The notes under the pieces were generated by a model. The model did no database searches. It was not told where the DNA came from and saw only the letters and a program-made list of their open reading frames with translations. From positions 21,712,464-21,776,463 of the forward strand of contig NC_043011.1 of NCBI RefSeq assembly GCF_006345805.1: 64,000 bases of DNA. The letters are read 5' to 3'. Position numbers and translations under genes: made by a program. Positions 987 through 41,800 of this stretch are shown piece after piece. Origin of the DNA: Octopus sinensis. Lineage: Eukaryota. Each line of letters begins with the position of its first letter. The first letter of the stretch is position 1.

Positions 987-1063
987 TTACAGATTATGCC
1001 TAACCGAAAACAATCACAGCCACATCATCCAAACAGACCAGATGAAACCGGGCTTAGCTGCTA

Positions 1064-1064
<1 letters not shown>

Positions 1065-1125
<61 letters not shown>

Positions 1126-1249
1126 GTATATATATACATACATATATACACACATATATATACATATATACACACACACATATATATATATATACATATA
1201 TAAATACATTTATATACATATATGGATACATACATATATATATATATAC

Positions 1250-1325
<76 letters not shown>

Positions 1326-1326
1326 C

Positions 1327-1363
<37 letters not shown>

Positions 1364-1521
1364 CATATATATACATATAATATACATATATATACATATA
1401 TATACATATAATATACATACATTCATATATACACACATATATATACATATATACACACACACACATATATATATATACATATATAAATACATTTATATAC
1501 ATATATGGATACATACATATA

Positions 1522-1559
<38 letters not shown>

Positions 1560-1712
1560 CATATATATACATATAATATACATATATATATACATATAAT
1601 ATACATATATATATATATAGAGATAGATAGATAGATACATATATATATACAAATATATATACATATATATAGAGACACACAGACAGACAGATATCTACAC
1701 ACATACATATAT
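1065..1712. repeat. Compound (TA)n/(CATA)n/(TAGA)n microsatellite block
   Basis: Directly visible; source of the Y/I/M/V pseudo-ORFs. Confidence 0.95.
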
Positions 1713-5499: not shown

Positions 5500-6389
5500 T
5501 CACGTATATATATTTATATATGCATGTATATATACATGTAGATGTAGGTACGTACATATATGTATGTATGTATGCATATATTTTATTTATTACACTTATT
5601 GTATGACAGCGCCCTCGCGTCGATTCGATTCGTTCTTATTCTCCAAGTACTGTTTTATATATATATATATATATACACACACATACATATATACATACAT
5701 ACATATAAACATACATATATATATATATATACATACATATAAACATACATATATATATACATACATATAAACATACATATATATATACTACATACATATA
5801 AACACACATATATATATACATACATATATATATATATATACATATATACATACATATATAATATATACATATATACACATATATATATATACACATATAT
5901 ATACACATATATATACACATATATATACACATATATATACACATATATACATATATATATACACATATATACATACACATATATACATATACACATATAT
6001 ATATATACACATATATACATATATATACACATATATACATATATATACACATATATATATACATATATATATACACATATATATATACATATATTATACA
6101 CATATATATACACACATATATACACATATACATACATATAAACATACTTATACATATAAACATACATATAAACATACTTATACATATAAACATACATATA
6201 CATATATATGTAATATATATATATATATCATCATCATCATCATTTAGCGTCTGTTTTCCATGCTAGCATGGGTTGGACGGTTCAACTGGGGTCTATGTAT
6301 ACATATACATATGTATATATATATAGATATATATATATTTGTATATATATAGATATATATATATGTGTATATATATATACATATATATT

Positions 6390-6427
<38 letters not shown>

Positions 6428-6726
6428 TACATATATACATATAGACACATATATACATATAGAAATATATATACATATGTATATATATATATATACATAC
6501 ATGCATATATATATATATATACATATACATCCATCCATCCATACATATATATATATACATAAATATACATACATATGTATATATACATACATATACCTAT
6601 ATATACATATATATACACACACATGTATATATACATATATATATACATATGTATGTGTATATACACACACGCATATATATATATAATATAACACACAATA
6701 TAATGTATATATATCCACATATATAC

Positions 6727-6770
<44 letters not shown>
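5500..6770. repeat. Long compound TA/CA microsatellite region
   Basis: Directly visible; interrupted by a short SINE tail fragment at ~6230-6295. Confidence 0.95.
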
Positions 6771-6772
<2 letters not shown>

Positions 6773-6868
6773 ATCAATATAGGGGGCAAGGAAAATTTTG
6801 TAGAATTTATGCCCACCACGGCCCAGCGGGAAAAAAATTAAATAGTCATAGACCATTTTAAGTTCACA

Positions 6869-12376: not shown

Positions 12377-12678
12377 TTTTACTCTTATTCTATCGGTCTC
12401 TTTTGCCGAACCGCTAAGTGACGGGGACGTAAACACACCAGCATCGGTTGTCAAGCAATGCTAGTGGGACAAACACAGACACACAAACACACATACATAT
12501 ATATACATATATATGACAGGCTTCTTTCAGTTTCCGTCTACCAAATCCACTCACAAGGCATTGGTCGGCCCGGGGCTATAGCAGAAGACACTTGCCCAAG
12601 GTGCCACGCAGTGGGACTGAACTCGGAACCATGTGGTTGGTTAGCAAGCTACTTACCACACAGCCACTCCTGCGCCTA
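12377..12678 (-). mobile_element. tRNA-derived SINE (family A)
   Basis: Reverse-complement copy of the 11159 element. Confidence 0.85.
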
Positions 12679-17052: not shown

Positions 17053-17237
17053 CTGTAAATACTTGTACAAAAACAATTGCAGCGTGGAAGGTGTTCATAA
17101 GCCATTTAAAAATACACAAAAACCGTTAGATCCACTTCAACATTTAAATTCAATTTGCCAAAATATTTTCGTCGCTTTGAGACCACGACAAAATTCCGTC
17201 TGCATCTTGGACTAAGTAATATACATTTCGCTATTGG

Positions 17238-21329: not shown

Positions 21330-24300
21330 GTAAGTATAAAATGTATAAAATCTACATCCTGAATTTTCTGTGAACTATTTCCTTATGCTAGGAGATATAA
21401 AGTATTTATCTTCGTTCATTATATTCTCTTTGTTATGAATTTTGATTCAGTAGACTTATAATGAGATGCATTCCAGTCATGACCATTCCGTCTTTTTTCT
21501 CTATCAGGGGCTACATTGTCTATCGTATCTTTTTTGTTTTAGACTGCGAGTACCTTGAGGGAAATTTGGCTTCTATCACTAAGAAGTTGAGTGACTGTGT
21601 AGGGTTTCCCTTTGCCGTTAAAAATAAAAGATGCGCCTAAAAAAATAAACTATGAGAAGAAAACTAGTTATATGCTAAATTATTTCATGGCAGTTAACGT
21701 AACCAGTGGCAGTGTTTCTGATGTTATTTCGAACCACTTCACGGAAATAATCTTGATACCACTTCTCTGTTATCAGTTTAATGGGCGAAGGTAAAGAATA
21801 CGCACACCCGGTGTTTAGGGTTAGGGTTAGTTTTAGGGCTAGGGTTAGGGTTTTTGTTACGCCGAAAACCGGTGGTGTACGTATTCTTTTCCTCCGCCGT
21901 TTAATATTACGGAGATGTACTTGCATAGCAAGTGACCTAATCTGAGATCGTGTGCTGGAACGAAAACAATTGCTGCGTGGAAGGTGTTTATAAGCCATTT
22001 AAGAAACACACAAAAACTGTTAGATTCACTTCAACATTAAATTTAATTTGTCAAAATGTTTTCGTCGCTTTTAGACCACGACCTGTTCACTGACAAAATT
22101 CCCTGCTGCATCTCATACAATACAAGAGTTTCTAAAAAAAATTGACGCAAATACTAGGCCTCAATTCTGATGGACCTTGCATACATAACAAATCTGCATC
22201 CCAAAGCCTAGGTTACCCTCCTTAGAGACAAATATACTTTAGCCCCAATTACTTTCAGATCCTCTACAAAGATCAGCCTTACCCATTAAATCAGTACTAC
22301 TTCAGCATGCACACATTCTTCCTTCGTGATCCAACAAGGGAGTTTCTGTGCAGTCACTCAACCTGCTAGAAATAGCAGGTCTCAAATCACAACCTGTCGC
22401 CTTAAATAAGGAAAGAATGAATTAATAGCCATCGGAGTGCTGGAAGATGTGGTAGATCTGCAGGCATTCATTGGAAACACAGCTAGGGATCTCAGCTGTG
22501 TCCCTCCAAAAAGTGCTTCCCGCCTTGGCCAACCGGGATCCAAACCCAGGCTGATCAGGCTGTTGTTTACAGGCTTTACTGAGGTGCGGACATTCCATCT
22601 AGCTGCTGATAGAGCTTGACATGACAACATAATCAACTTTAGAACACTTCCTGGCCTACCACCTGATGTACGCCCAAAGCTAAGATTTGTAGCTTCTCTA
22701 AATCGCAACTCTGTGCCACAGGAGAGTTTTAACCTCCGCGATGATGGACAAATCTGGAAATGGATGCCAGTTGGACTGAGCAGACTACACCCACAACAAC
22801 AACTGGCAATACAAAAATCTTGGGAAACTAACCAAGAACAACCAGCCATCCCCTGTATATCATCATCTGAAATCCAGATATAAACTGCTGTCCTTGAATG
22901 CCCGTAGTTTATGCAACAAGGTGCATCTTTTTGACTCCTACGTCAAAAGTATCAACCCAGATTTCATCACAGTCACGGAAACATGGGCACACTCTGCACT
23001 CTGTGATGGAGTTTTCAGCATAGCCAGCTACAATCTGTTCTGCAAAGACCGCATTAATCACCGTGGAGGGGGTGTGATGATTTAGGTTTGATCAAATCTA
23101 TCGGCAATCCCGTGATGATTTGAACCAATCTCAGCAGGAAGTATTTTTCTGCAATATACACATGACCATGTCAACACTGCTGCTCGGAGTCGTTTACCGC
23201 CCCCCAAATTATCATCAAAACGCACAGCTTTTTGATATCCTCAGAGCTGCTGCCATGAAAACAACCGCGTATGTTTATATTGCGGGCGACTTCAATTTCC
23301 TTGAGATTGACTGGGAGGCCTTCCGTTGGCCGCAAAATGCAGACGATTTCCTTGAACTGGTGCTGAATTCAAATTGGTCCCAAGTCATTACCTCCCCCAC
23401 AAGGGGTAACAACACTTTGGATCTGCTACTTACCGCTTCTCCTGAAACAATCATTAGTGTCACTACTGAAGAACCTTTAGGTGACTCTGATCATTCCATG
23501 ATCATGGCCAACTTGTCTCTGGTTGTAACAAAAAACACAACCATCTTCAGACTGCCCGCTTTGACTAGAATAAAGCAGACTGGAGCTCTTATTGTACTGA
23601 GCTGCAATGCCCAAACTGGCTCTAAATTTATATGCCTCTGGAGATGTGGACACTATACTCCAGAACATTCTGAATTCAATATGGGTGGCATGTGCAGCAT
23701 CAGTACCACGCAAGCACAAAAAACCACCCAATAGTGCAATTTGGGAGACTGCAGCAGTCCGACTTGCCAGGAAAGAATGCCGTAATGCTGAACAGGAATA
23801 CAAATTGCACAAATCAGAGAGCAACAGGAAAAAGCGCAATAGATCAGCCAACCACCTTAGGCAGGTGACAAAAAAGGCAGTGCTTGAATTTGAACAACGC
23901 ATTGCAGCTAACCCTGACAGCAAAGTGTTCTGGAAGTATGTGCACTCAAAGCAGAGACCCCACTCTCCAGTTGGTCCCCTTCGCAATCCTCACACAGGAC
24001 AGATTACTGGCAATCCCGAAGAATGTGCAGAAATCATTGCTGGATGCTATGCCGGCATCTTTACTGTCGAAGACCAAAATATTCCATCTTCATCACCACT
24101 GACATCGGACTCTATATCTACTATGCAATTTACACCAGCAATGCTACAACGCCACCTTAAGAATAAACGCAACTATACCTCTCCTGGTCTCGATGGTGTT
24201 ACATACCTACTTCTCAAACACGGTGGGTACTTTCTTCTAAGCCAACTTTCTCTATTCTTCCAATTCTGTCTTGACAATAGTGTTACTCCAGAACAGTGGA

Positions 24301-30300: not shown

Positions 30301-31350
30301 CGTTGGCATGCAACTTGCAGGACTATGAACCCCAAGGGAGGTGTGAGATCAGCTTCATGCTGGGGGATGAGGAGTTAAAGCATGAGATAATGTGGGTGGG
30401 GTCAGAGCAAATTCTTGTAGAGGATATGCACAGCTACTCAAATTTTGTAGCCGAAGGGGAGAAAGAGAAACAAGAAATGATCAATGATCAAAGAGATCGA
30501 TAATGGTGACAAGGTTCTCAAGGTATAGTCGAGTAAATCAATTCTGGAATATAAGTGGTACTTATTTTTATTGACCATGGTGGAAAGAAAGACAAACTCA
30601 ACTATAGTTGGATTTAAGCTCAGATCATTGGAGGACAGAACTACATACTGAAAGGATTGGGGTTTTTGTCTAATTTCTACTATTCTCTCAAACTCCAAAA
30701 TGCTCTCAGTTTAAATATATGAAAATTCAGTTCTTAATTAAATCCTAAATTAATTAATCAATTGCAGCGTGGAAGGTGTTTGTAAGCCATTTAAGAAACA
30801 CACAAAAGCCGTTCGATTCACTTCAACATTTAAGTTTAATTTGTCAAAATATTTTCGTCGCTAAAATCCACGACCTGTTCACTGACAAAAATCCGTGCTG
30901 CATCTCGGATTTTTGTCAGTGAAATCCATGCAGCACGGATTTTTGTCATTGAACAGGTCGCGGATTTTAGCGACGAAAATATTTTGACAAATTAAACTTA
31001 AATGTTGAAGTGAATCGAACGGCTTTTGTGTGTTTCTTAAATGGCTTACAAACATCTTCCACGCTGCAATTGTTTTCGTTCCAGCACACAATCTCAGATC
31101 AAATCACTTGCTATGCGAGTACATCTCTGTAATAATTAATCAATTTAATTATTTAAATATTAAAATAACTTGTGCTGGTTTTTAGTTAAATCTGTTTTCC
31201 TTTTCATATCTATTTCAAGACAACAGTAATGAAGAGGATGAAGATGATGATGATGATGACGATGATGCAGATGAAGGCAGTAACAAGCATTATGATAGTT
31301 TAAAATGCTTCCTAGACCAACTCTGTCAGAGAGAACAAAACAAAACTTAA
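21222..31350 (+). CDS. SNAPC5: snRNA-activating protein complex subunit 5 (SNAP19); join(21222..21329,27257..27346,28423..28483,31220..31350), 129 aa
   Basis: Spliced product MSNAEYLQKQLNMLKWEEKYIKSIIELHEDQLSRLK|VEELALKHKIAVEEGCHDEDTSRLKKNEKQ|AMETDENINSVPLMLETNRF|YNSNEEDEDDDDDDDDADEG...KT*. DQLSRLKVEELAL matches the SNAPC5 signature (human HDQLNRLKVEELAL), followed by IN..L.L.T and an acidic tail. All introns GT-AG with consistent phases; in-frame TAA upstream of the ATG. Confidence 0.9.
21784..21898. mobile_element. 115-bp MITE with a TTAGGG core
   Basis: Imperfect TIRs GGCGAAGGTAAAGAATACG / CGTATTCTTTTCCTCCGCC; TSD GTTTAATG / GTTTAATA; internal TTAGGG-like repeats. Confidence 0.75.
21907..22112 (-). 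mobile_element. ~205-bp dispersed repeat carrying a hammerhead-like motif (copies 17070-17207, 30759-30906, 30927-31133)
   Basis: Shared CAATTGC.GCGTGGAAGGTGTT...TTTGTCAAAAT.TTTTCGTCGC...CGACCTGTTCACTGACAAA sequence. Confidence 0.8.
22380..25778 (+). mobile_element. CR1-group LINE (ORF1 remnant + frameshifted ORF2: APE endonuclease and reverse transcriptase) in SNAPC5 intron 1
   Basis: LNARSL, VTETW, DR...GGGV, GVVYRPP, GDFN, LDLLL, SDH; RT motifs NYRPISLTS, QFGF, YLDFAKAF.SVPH, SGVPQGSVLGPLLF, YADD, ERDLGV, TRGH..K, FF..RV..WN.LP; (ATT)n tail at 25763-25778. Confidence 0.93.
27257..27346 (+). CDS. SNAPC5: SNAPC5 coding exon 2
   Basis: TTTTTAG|GTT...CAG|GTAAGT; 90 nt; VEELAL... Confidence 0.92.
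28423..28483 (+). CDS. SNAPC5: SNAPC5 coding exon 3
   Basis: TTTTCAG|GCA...TTC T|GTAGGT; 61 nt; AMETDENINSVPLMLETNRF. Confidence 0.8.
30759..31133. repeat. ~145-bp-arm palindrome formed by two inverted copies of the hammerhead-carrying repeat, in SNAPC5 intron 3
   Basis: 30759-30903 is the near-perfect reverse complement of 30927-31071; flanked by direct repeat TAATTAATCAATT (30751-30763, 31133-31145). Confidence 0.9.
30840..30889 (-). ncRNA. Minimal type I hammerhead-ribozyme-like motif, G3-C8 core variant
   Basis: UUUGUCA-GUGAACA-G-GUCGU(loop)GCGAC-GAAA-AUAU-UU-UGACAAA. Confidence 0.6.
31220..31350 (+). CDS. SNAPC5: SNAPC5 terminal coding exon (acidic tail)
   Basis: Pyrimidine tract then TCAAG|AC; phase matches exon 3; poly-Asp/Glu then TAA at 31348-31350. 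Confidence 0.75.
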
Positions 31351-38852: not shown

Positions 38853-41800
38853 CTGTAATGAGAAAAAAAGAGAGAGAAAAAATCAGAATTTAACAACCAT
38901 TATATAAATTGCATATATACTCTTTACTCTTTTACTTGTTTCAGTCATTTGACTGCGGCCATGCTGGAGCACTGCCTTTAATCGAGCAACTCGACCCCAG
39001 AATTTATTCTTTTGTAAGCCCAGTACTTATTCTGTCGGTCTCTTTTGCCGAACTGCTAAGTAACGGGGACATAAACACACCAGCATCGGTTGTCAAGCAA
39101 TGCTGGGGGACAAACACAGACACGCATATATATACATATATACGACGGGCTTCTTTCAGTTTGCCTGCTGAATCCACTCACAAAGCTTTGGTTGGCCTGC
39201 AGCTATAGTAGAAGACACTCAAAGTGTTGAGCAGTGGGACTGAACCCAAGACCACAAGACTGGGAATAAAGCAAGATACCCACACAACCATGCCAGTGCC
39301 TTCAGCCACACCTGGATAAAAGTTTTTGTATGTATCTGGCAAAAAAAAACCTTCCATCTCAATCACATTGCTACATGCAATAATGAGCTAAGCTGGTAGC
39401 TGTGGCAAAATTATTGTTGAATTCATGGCCTAGACATGTTTACTTATCACAAATTGCTTTTATTTACAAGGTTTATTCCATAAATCAGGGAATCTAACAG
39501 GTAAACAAGAATTTTACTCCATACAAGAGTAGTTGGGACTTAGAAGTTAATATGTAAAAACACTTTATTTCACATTGCTCCAATTCACTCAGCTGTAGAA
39601 ATGAGTTGTGACATCCCTGGTGCCAGGCTGTATCGGCTTTTGCTTTTCTCTTGGATAACATCGGTGGCATGGAGAGGGAAGACTGGCATGCATGGGTGAC
39701 TGCTGGTCTTCTACAAACAACTTTGCTCAGACTTGTGCCTCGGAAGGAAAATTCTAGGTGCAATCTGATGGTCATTCATGACTGAAGGGGGTCATCTATG
39801 TAAATGTGTCCAATGGTTCTAAAGATCTATTATGGGTTACTGTTTAGCTCCAGTTTCATAGAAGCAACCAAATCAGAAACAACTCCTAGCCTCGCCACGA
39901 CCACCATCATATTTCCATGTGAATTGGTACTAAGTTGAAACTATAACATAAACTAAAGCATAAAGAACTAAATAGACAATAAAATGCTTTGCAGTGGATT
40001 TTAACTCTAGACAACCTGCACAGACCAATGTAAATGGTTAATAACTTGAAAAAGATAAGATAAGACAAAAAGCAACATTATTATTAATTTTTGAGAGCAA
40101 CAACACAAACCTGCTAGTGCATGGAACATTCCCAACAGGACTCTCAGTTCGCACTTTTTTACTTGCAAATGATGTTTCTGGTTCAGCTTTTCGTTTCTGT
40201 GGGAGGACTGGAATAACAGGAAAATCAAATATTAGTTCATAAATCATATGTGGGTGAACAGCAAAAATCAAAAAGATGACATACATATTCCTTTTGAATA
40301 TGTTCCAGTAGATTTTAACATGAATACAATGTCCAAGACATTTGGTGCACTGTTGTACCCAAGAATACCTGTCCGCCAAAGCAGAATTGATATCAAAGCT
40401 GGTTGCCATATAAAAGCACCCTGTACACTTTGTGGAGTGGTCAGCATTAGGAAGGGCATCCAGCCATAGAAACCGTGCCAGAACAGACAATGGAACCTAA
40501 TGCAGCCCCTGGCCTTACCAGCTACAGTCAAATCATCCAACCCATGCCAGCATGGATAACAGATGTTAAATGATGATGATGTTGATGATGACAACAGTGG
40601 TAACCATGTACACAGACCCTAAATTAGCTGGAACATATTAAGAAAATATGCACACGGTGAACAGCACAAATCATAATGATGACATACATATTCATTCTTA
40701 ATATGTTCCACAGATTCTAACATGAATACAACACTGATAACCATATACTCACATAATTGTAGTTGTGATATCTGCACCGGTGGCACGTAAAAAGCACCGA
40801 TCGATCGTGGCCATTGCCAGCCTGCCAGTGGCACCTAAAAAGCACCATTCATTAGGCAGCCGATGCCAGCGCCGCCTTGACTGGCTTCCATGCCGGTGGC
40901 ACGTAAAAAGTACCAACCAATCATGGCCGTTGCCAGCCTACCCTGGCACCTGTGCTGGTGGCTCCTAAAAAGCACCATCCGTATGTGGCCGATGCCAGCG
41001 CCGCCTTGGCTGGCTTCTGTGTCAGTGGCACATAAAAACCACCAACTGATTGTGGCCGTTGCCAGCCTCCTCTGGCACGTAAAAAGCACCCACTACACTC
41101 ACGGAGTGGTTGGCGTTAGGAAGGGCATCCAGCTGTAGAAACACTGCCAGATCAGACTGGAACCTGGTGCAGCCTCTTGGCTTCCCAGACCCCAGTTAAA
41201 CCGTCCAACCCATGCTAGCATGGAAAACGGACGTTAAAAGATGATGATGGAACATATTAATAAGAAACATTAGTTAATTAAACGAATAAATTCAATTTAC
41301 AGTCTCAAAACAAAATATGTTGCCTTCAATTGGATAGTATTTTTCAGTTTTCTTATAATTTATGTAATGAAGAGTATCATTAGTTACATGTTCCTGATGG
41401 ACTAAATGCTGGTTTATTACTTTGTCCGAATTTGAGAGTGACACCCCAAGGAATTTTTGTTCAATGCTCAGGCATTTTCTTGCTATAGTTATCTTTAGGT
41501 AACAAGTGAGATGTGGTTCCCCAACCTATCTATATACACAACAGGCTTCTTTCAGTATCTGTGTGCAAAATCCACTTACAAGGATTTGGTGGGCCTAGGC
41601 ATATAGTAGAAGACACTTGCTCAAGGTGTCATACAGTTGGACTGAACTGAAGATAATGTGGTTGGGAAGCAAACTTCTTACCACAAAGCCAAACCTACAA
41701 CTGACAAAATAAATTATGAACCAAATACTGGGGCAGATATAACTGACTAATACTGTCTCTACTAAACTGCTGGCTTTGTATATAAATTAGAAGTAATTAT

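What the first reader, a model, noticed from the sequence alone, without database searches (positions are those of the whole stretch)
30840..30991. Dispersed repeat carries a hammerhead fold with a compensatory G3-C8 core
Seen (minus 30889-30840; also minus 22097-22047): stem I UUUGUCA/UGACAAA, core GUGAACA, one extra G, stem II GUCG(U/C)/GCGAC, GAAA, a short stem III (palindromic AAUAUU in the 30.8-31.0 kb copies, AACAUU at 22 kb) and a UU cleavage context. Known: the canonical core is C3-U-G-A-N-G8-A with a C3-G8 tertiary Watson-Crick pair, and minimal type I hammerheads with palindromic stem III occur in Penelope-like elements and retrozymes and work as dimers. Inference: both positions swapped together suggest selection for catalysis, and CUGANGA-based searches would miss this family. 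The plus copy 30942-30991 has U3, and the copy near 17155-17195 has the core deleted.
Basis: partly seen in the sequence, partly recalled or inferred. Interest (0 to 1): 0.8.

Follow-up and report, generated by a model that had tools for sequence, protein, structure and literature searches.

The report
Swapped-core hammerhead in Penelope retroelements
Thousands of copies of one jumping gene in this animal genome carry a small hammerhead-shaped RNA motif in which two paired core letters are swapped relative to its sister elements, so it is likely a natural variant of a self-cutting RNA that standard searches miss, although cutting is untested.

Summary
The repeat is the pseudo-LTR of a Penelope-like retroelement (RT plus C-terminal GIY-YIG; partial tandems, inverted pairs, optional 3' tail), and the motif sits 56 nt before the ORF start. 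With positions 3 and 8 left free, 4,605 copies match genome-wide and 4,223 have G3 and C8 (controls 0). An older related family (pLTR about 65% identical) also has G3-C8 but another N7, loop II and a shorter stem III palindrome. The sister element (54% protein identity) has C3-G8 at the same place. So the pair flipped once and was kept, which favours a working, slow, dimer- or protein-assisted hammerhead; the lab-made C3G/G8C double mutant of another Penelope hammerhead partly cleaves (PMC11167929). Cutting is not shown. Only 2 of 100 copies begin at the cut site, but a canonical-core control family gives 0 of 30, so that test does not discriminate. I found no natural G3-C8 hammerhead in the papers I could read; three key papers were not held. 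This scan noted G3-C8 motifs behind Penelope RTs before, on other DNA (two notes). New variant of a known kind.

The parts
30759..30905 (-). pseudo-LTR copy of the Penelope-like element, without the 3' tail (left arm of a head-to-head pair)
   Evidence: 95% identical to the pLTR of the ORF-bearing copy L063
30840..30889 (-). minimal type I hammerhead fold, G3 (30882) and C8 (30877), extra G (30875), predicted cut between 30847 and 30846
30906..30927 (.). junction of the inverted pair, holding a short extra piece of the element's 5' end
   Evidence: sequence; similar fold-back junctions in other copies
30928..31133 (+). pseudo-LTR copy with the about 58-nt tail (right arm)
   Evidence: 95% identical to L063 pLTR; tail seen in 52 of 100 sampled copies
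30942..30991 (+). hammerhead fold with a private G3-to-U change (U3-C8, predicted inactive)
   Evidence: T at position 3 in 1 of the first 100 listed matches
30752..30763 (+). 12-nt AT-rich direct repeat, likely target-site duplication (left; overlaps the element's end)
   Evidence: inference
31134..31145 (+). 12-nt direct repeat (right)
   Evidence: inference
21906..22113 (-). older pseudo-LTR copy with tail; hammerhead fold at 22097-22047 with G3-C8
   Evidence: 88% identical
17067..17211 (-). decayed pseudo-LTR copy with a 12-nt deletion through the core

Best explanation
The motif is the hammerhead fold in the pseudo-LTR of a recently amplified Penelope-like retroelement, with the core pair 3-8 flipped from C-G to G-C in this lineage, and it likely still folds into the active hammerhead shape and cuts slowly after U17, probably only as a dimer or with the element's protein. 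Shown: host element, position 56 nt upstream of the ORF start, family-wide G3-C8, C3-G8 in the sister element, G3-C8 in an older relative. Inferred: transcripts start about 15 nt upstream of stem I; reverse transcription starts inside the RNA near the ORF start and mostly copies uncut RNA, which gives the thousands of 150-210 nt solo and inverted copies; tandem read-through RNA holds two hammerheads that would pair through the stem III palindrome. The 3-8 pair exists only in the active fold (established knowledge), so keeping it complementary points to selection on that fold in the master elements. The copies in this window are passive insertions.
For: Host: copies extend 5' into a GIY-YIG domain (Pfam PF01541 E 1.5e-4, 22.4 bits, just under the 22.6 cut-off); open frames up to 1,042 codons with RT motifs, a CX3CxxC linker and C-terminal endonuclease; Atlas neighbours at 0.96-0.97 carry RT, GIY-YIG and HTH_animal; pLTR-ORF-pLTR partial tandem in L063, inverted flanks in others; 17 head-to-head pairs and 54 TA-rich 3' flanks among 100 copies. 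Core: 4,223 of 4,605; in 100 copies picked by a downstream anchor G3 77 of 77 and C8 77 of 78 covering copies, while loop II differs between subfamilies. Sister element (54% identity over 814 aa): C3-G8 in 16 of 16 motif hits in 10 loci picked by protein, with changed but paired stems I and II. Older family E, searched with 3 and 8 free: G3 in 21 and C8 in 23 of 27 listed matches, both in 17, with C7, 6-bp stem II and a 4-nt palindrome; it groups with this family (SH-aLRT 97, core columns dropped). Pair 3-8 over 44 copies of five families: G-C 16, C-G 12, U-G 9, unpaired 7. The C3G/G8C double mutant partly restores cleavage in the Anolis Penelope hammerhead, which needs the element's protein (PMC11167929).
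Against: No cleavage data. The swap is one evolutionary event, and one search counts related copies, partly chosen by patterns that fix other columns (G8 was imposed for family D). Only 2 of 100 copies start at the cut site, both at fold-back junctions that stem I complementarity explains; the canonical-core control gives 0 of 30, so this neither supports nor refutes activity. The young sister subfamily spread with A9 replaced by C, so this clade tolerates a core change expected to hurt catalysis. G3 can pair with U17 and extend stem I; the all-A/U palindrome gives a duplex of only -0.2 kcal/mol by itself. The extra nucleotide is G, whereas the published consensus has A, C or U (PMC4209133 Fig. 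S3; one listed example has G). Penelope hammerheads cut poorly in vitro and cutting was not needed for insertion (PMC4209133, PMC11167929).
Confidence: 0.62

Rival explanations
1. The motif descends from a hammerhead but no longer cuts; its fold or sequence is kept for another job (protein binding, promoter or splice signals, translation of the ORF), and the complementary 3-8 change is a frozen accident of one founder element.
For: One swap event only; a sister subfamily spread with A9 to C; most copied RNA was uncut; cutting is dispensable in vitro for another element; the motif lies between a probable start site and the ORF.
Against: Two transversions had to end up complementary, and both were kept across the split from family E while N7, loop II, stem II length and stem III length changed; 3 and 8 pair only in the active fold (established knowledge); the palindrome stayed a palindrome at two lengths.
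Confidence: 0.3
2. [quoted passage not shown]
For: All other core positions are canonical and stems I and II are stable.
Against: 76 of 100 copies begin at or upstream of stem I and keep the whole motif, 2 begin at the site; closing stem III in a monomer costs about 5 kcal/mol; minimal Penelope hammerheads did not cut as monomers (PMC4209133).
Confidence: 0.06
3. Chance hairpin in a SINE, MITE or retrozyme unrelated to Penelope elements.
For: Most copies are short and non-coding; Rfam has no hit.
Against: Continuous homology to RT and GIY-YIG ORFs, pLTR architecture, and a canonical hammerhead at the homologous place in the sister element.
Confidence: 0.02

Closest known systems
Minimal type I hammerheads of metazoan Penelope-like elements (Cervera and De la Pena 2014, PMC4209133; main text parts 1-2 of 4 and supplement file 2 parts 1-2 of 3 read)
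   Same: In the pLTR; stem II of 5-6 bp; extra nucleotide between 9 and 10.1; G10.1-C11.1; short palindromic stem III; NUH site; mostly solo copies and inverted pairs.
   Different: Core pair is G3-C8. The 56 representatives in Fig. S3 have C3-G8, U3-A8 (two Schistosoma families) or U3-G8 (one); none has G3-C8. The extra nucleotide is G (consensus H; one listed example has G).
Engineered C3G/G8C hammerheads (PMC11167929 section read; PMC8495972 and PMC3884650 passages)
   Same: Same two substitutions; the double change partly restores cleavage, also in the Anolis Poseidon hammerhead.
   Different: Those are lab mutants; here the state is natural, in over 4,000 copies, and kept across two families.
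Natural U3-A8 hammerheads (Perreault 2011, PMC3088659 passages; PMC4209133)
   Same: Natural covariation of the same tertiary pair.
   Different: Two transitions there, a purine-pyrimidine flip (two transversions) here.
EN+ Penelope-like elements of the Neptune or Nematis type (Craig 2021, PMC8557442 passages)
   Same: RT then zinc-finger-like linker then GIY-YIG; partial tandems, 5' inverted copies, tail, TA-repeat bias.
   Different: Tail about 58 nt rather than 30-40; clade not fixed by a tree with reference elements.

Membership tests
EN+ Penelope-like retroelement | Single ORF with RT and C-terminal GIY-YIG endonuclease | tested here: met
   1,042-codon frame with RT motifs read from the sequence; GIY-YIG Pfam hit E 1.5e-4 just under cut-off; the full frame alone had no Pfam hit and the sister had RVT_1 at E 0.002; Atlas neighbours RT/GIY-YIG
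EN+ Penelope-like retroelement | Pseudo-LTRs from partial tandems, inverted 5' copies, optional tail | tested here: met
Neptune clade | CX2-5CxxC linker and RT phylogeny with reference elements | tested here: inconclusive
   Linker present but shared with Nematis; no reference tree built
Minimal type I hammerhead of PLEs | Three-way junction with stems I and II and open end at stem I | tested here: met
Minimal type I hammerhead of PLEs | U4 G5 A6, A9, G12 A13 A14, A15.1-U16.1, H17 | tested here: met
   92-100% in the anchor-picked sample
Minimal type I hammerhead of PLEs | Literal C3 and G8 of the consensus | tested here: not met
   G3 and C8 in 4,223 of 4,605
Minimal type I hammerhead of PLEs | Watson-Crick complementarity of 3 and 8 | tested here: met
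Minimal type I hammerhead of PLEs | Extra nucleotide 9a and palindromic stem III | tested here: met
   9a is G rather than the usual H
Hammerhead ribozyme | Site-specific self-cleavage | not testable with these tools
   Only contigs, no raw reads; genomic 5' ends do not discriminate
Non-LTR retrozyme | Head-to-tail tandem non-coding units, each with a hammerhead | tested here: not met
   Copies are solo, head-to-head or attached to the ORF

The most novel reading that the evidence does not exclude
This is a natural, catalytically active hammerhead with the flipped G3-C8 pair, kept by selection in a whole lineage of Penelope elements together with U at the cut site (C there would trap G3), and such flipped cores hide in other Penelope clades now described as lacking hammerheads because every descriptor asks for CUGANGA.
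Probability: 0.3. Interest if true: 0.75.

Novelty: new variant of a known kind. Interest (0 to 1): 0.55.

Why it matters
The 3-8 tertiary pair was proved with a lab-made double mutant; nature was reported to use C-G and U-A. A high-copy natural G-C form, with its C-G sister in the same genome, gives a ready wild-type/sister pair for testing whether Penelope hammerheads are under selection to cut, which is an open question (PMC8557442 calls their function unclear). It also shows that pattern searches miss whole families, which bears on claims that some Penelope clades lack hammerheads.

Tried and rejected
Rfam scan of the window: no hammerhead hit. Search for a second large G3-C8 family with another first stem II pair: 1,121 matches against 2,023 in the control, no structured family among the 100 listed. 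Search for a C3-G8 ancestor within this family: 199 matches with G8; of the 100 listed none was a family-A copy with C3, 84 had G3. Genomic 5' ends as a read-out of cleavage: uninformative after the control (in one search my zero is set one base 3' of the true site). Sequencing runs: no RNA holder listed on record; eight runs laid were all contigs, which cannot show ends or strand. PDB sequence search of the ORF: no match. My strict descriptor found no hammerhead in the sister loci because the young sister subfamily has C9. The upstream branch-point-like and AG signals suggest a 3' splice site at the 5' hot spot; I favour a start site because many short copies begin with an extra G, but could not decide. 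Papers not held: Lunse 2017 (PMC5785218), Przybilski and Hammann 2007 (PMC1986816), and two further PMC ids that I recalled for a 2012 review and the 2006 structure paper. Literature searches for a natural G3-C8; only lab mutants came up. One tally script did not run, so the 27 matches were counted by eye from its table; 20 of them were read from loci (where one strand was mis-set and corrected).

Full report
Observation. The four copies are as described. Stems I and II form the minimum-energy fold of the three intact copies. The 30.8-31.1 kb locus is a head-to-head pair of two copies flanked by a 12-nt direct repeat; a transcript across it would be one long hairpin, so it is not a hammerhead dimer. 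Rfam gives no hammerhead match.

What the repeat is. A search of the 2.7-Gb own genome returned near-identical copies. Several run on 5' into shared sequence that ends in a GIY-YIG domain. That domain finds 151 matches among 150 scored of 5,629 candidates, with open frames up to 1,042 codons. The long frame shows RT motifs, a CX3CxxC linker and the endonuclease. Pfam support is weak, Atlas neighbours carry RT, GIY-YIG and HTH_animal. L063 is a pLTR-ORF-3'UTR-pLTR partial tandem whose ORF starts inside the pLTR, 56 nt after the predicted cut; others have an inverted 5' copy. Of 100 copies chosen by a downstream anchor (first 100 of 3,022 exact matches), 52 have the tail, 54 have a TA-rich 3' flank and 34 form 17 head-to-head pairs. 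This is the anatomy of endonuclease-bearing Penelope-like elements (PMC8557442, passages). The host is probably an octopus: a protein labelled Octopus vulgaris matches a sister family in this genome at 99%.

Is G3-C8 the family state? Yes. With 3, 7, 8 and 9a free, 4,605 places match (control 0); 4,223 have G3 and C8. Among the first 100 listed, 98 have G3, 96 have C8, none has C3 with G8. In the anchor-picked sample G3 is 77 of 77 and C8 77 of 78. Subfamilies differ in loop II length and sequence, not in the core. Variation among inserted copies is neutral decay and says little about selection; the comparison between families does.

Relatives. The sister element (54% identity over 814 aa) has a homologous pLTR with a hammerhead at the same place: C3-G8 in 16 of 16 hits in 10 loci chosen by protein, the same extra G, and stems I and II changed on both strands. 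A pattern excluding G3 gave 6,289 matches (control 1,028); by my count 66 of the 100 listed are C3-G8. An older family E, searched with 3 and 8 free, has G3 in 21 and C8 in 23 of 27 matches, both in 17; two of the 27 are decayed family-A copies. It has C7, a 6-bp stem II and mostly a four-base palindrome in place of the six-base one. Its pLTR is about 65% identical to family A downstream of the motif, and A and E group together (SH-aLRT 97, core columns dropped, midpoint root, 53 short decayed rows). A further old family D has U3 in 9 of 11 copies, but G8 was imposed by the pattern that found it, so U3-G8 is not independently shown. Over 44 rows the 3-8 pair is G-C 16, C-G 12, U-G 9, unpaired 7; I left out six family-A rows (five found with G8 imposed or truncated, one decayed), two family-E rows with G8 and one unassigned row, and the rows are related, so this is one swap, not many. 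The genome also holds abundant canonical hammerhead families of the same build.

Does it cut? Not shown. Of the 100 copies, 76 begin at or upstream of stem I, 36 of them 55-61 nt before the cut site, often with an extra G as a cap would leave; 2 begin at the site, both at fold-back junctions. A canonical-core family gives 20 of 30 upstream of the core and 0 of 30 at the site. So uncut RNA is the usual template in both, as reported for the Anolis element, whose hammerhead needs the protein, is partly rescued by C3G/G8C, and leaves no read ends at the site (PMC11167929, parts 1-2 of 4 read). Against strong activity: G3 can pair with U17, the palindrome is weak, and the young sister subfamily has C9. 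A small point in favour: U17 is 89 of 89 in family A while most older sister copies have C17; a G3-C8 mutant was said to do worse with C17 than with G17 (PMC3884650, passage, data not shown). Sequencing runs were contigs only.

Comparison with what is known. Penelope hammerheads with an extra nucleotide, palindromic stem III and low dimer activity are described, with a U3-A8 variant (PMC4209133); none of the 56 representatives in its Fig. S3 has G3-C8 (supplement file 1 and part 3 of file 2 not seen; figure panels are only partly legible as text). Perreault 2011 reports natural U3-A8 (passages). Eight searches found G3-C8 only as a lab mutant. Lunse 2017, a large survey of these motifs, and Przybilski 2007 were not held and could already list it; the bioRxiv paper was read in part 1 of 5 only. 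Two earlier notes of this scan report G3-C8 motifs behind Penelope RTs in other genomes; they are unchecked here and are not used as support.

Verdict. A real, family-wide core variant of the Penelope hammerhead; probably functional at a low, assisted rate (0.62), possibly a non-cutting relic (0.3). New variant of a known kind; interest 0.55.

Noticed in passing
L147:6371 and other sister-family copies: The youngest subfamily of the sister Penelope element has C in place of the conserved A9 and still spread to many copies; older subfamilies keep A9.
   Followed up: partly
L172, L179-L188: Old Penelope-type pLTR family with U at position 3 in 9 of 11 copies; position 8 was fixed as G by the search, so U3-G8 versus U3-A8 is open.
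   Followed up: partly
G000: About 160 family copies (84 of the first 100 of 199 matches) carry G3 with G8, spread over all loop II subfamilies; this looks frequent for a C-to-G change and is unexplained.
   Followed up: no
L063:2525-2545: A branch-point-like motif, pyrimidine run and AG sit exactly at the 5' hot spot of short copies; start site or 3' splice site (the Drosophila Penelope intron ends at helix I per PMC4209133).
   Followed up: partly
L157-L166, L219-L248: At least three very abundant canonical C3-G8 minimal hammerhead families in this genome (47,589 pattern matches with multiple counting, control 4,258); no paper on octopus hammerheads came up.
   Followed up: partly
L082, L099 and other inverted pairs: Fold-back junctions often use the complementarity of stem I or of the first 20 nt, which suggests template switching guided by the RNA's own structure.
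   Followed up: no
window 1000-1700, 5500-6800 and dispersed repeats such as 12469-12677, 41071-41142: Long TA/CA microsatellites and several high-copy SINE-like repeats fill the window; the Rfam microRNA hits are microsatellite artefacts.
   Followed up: no
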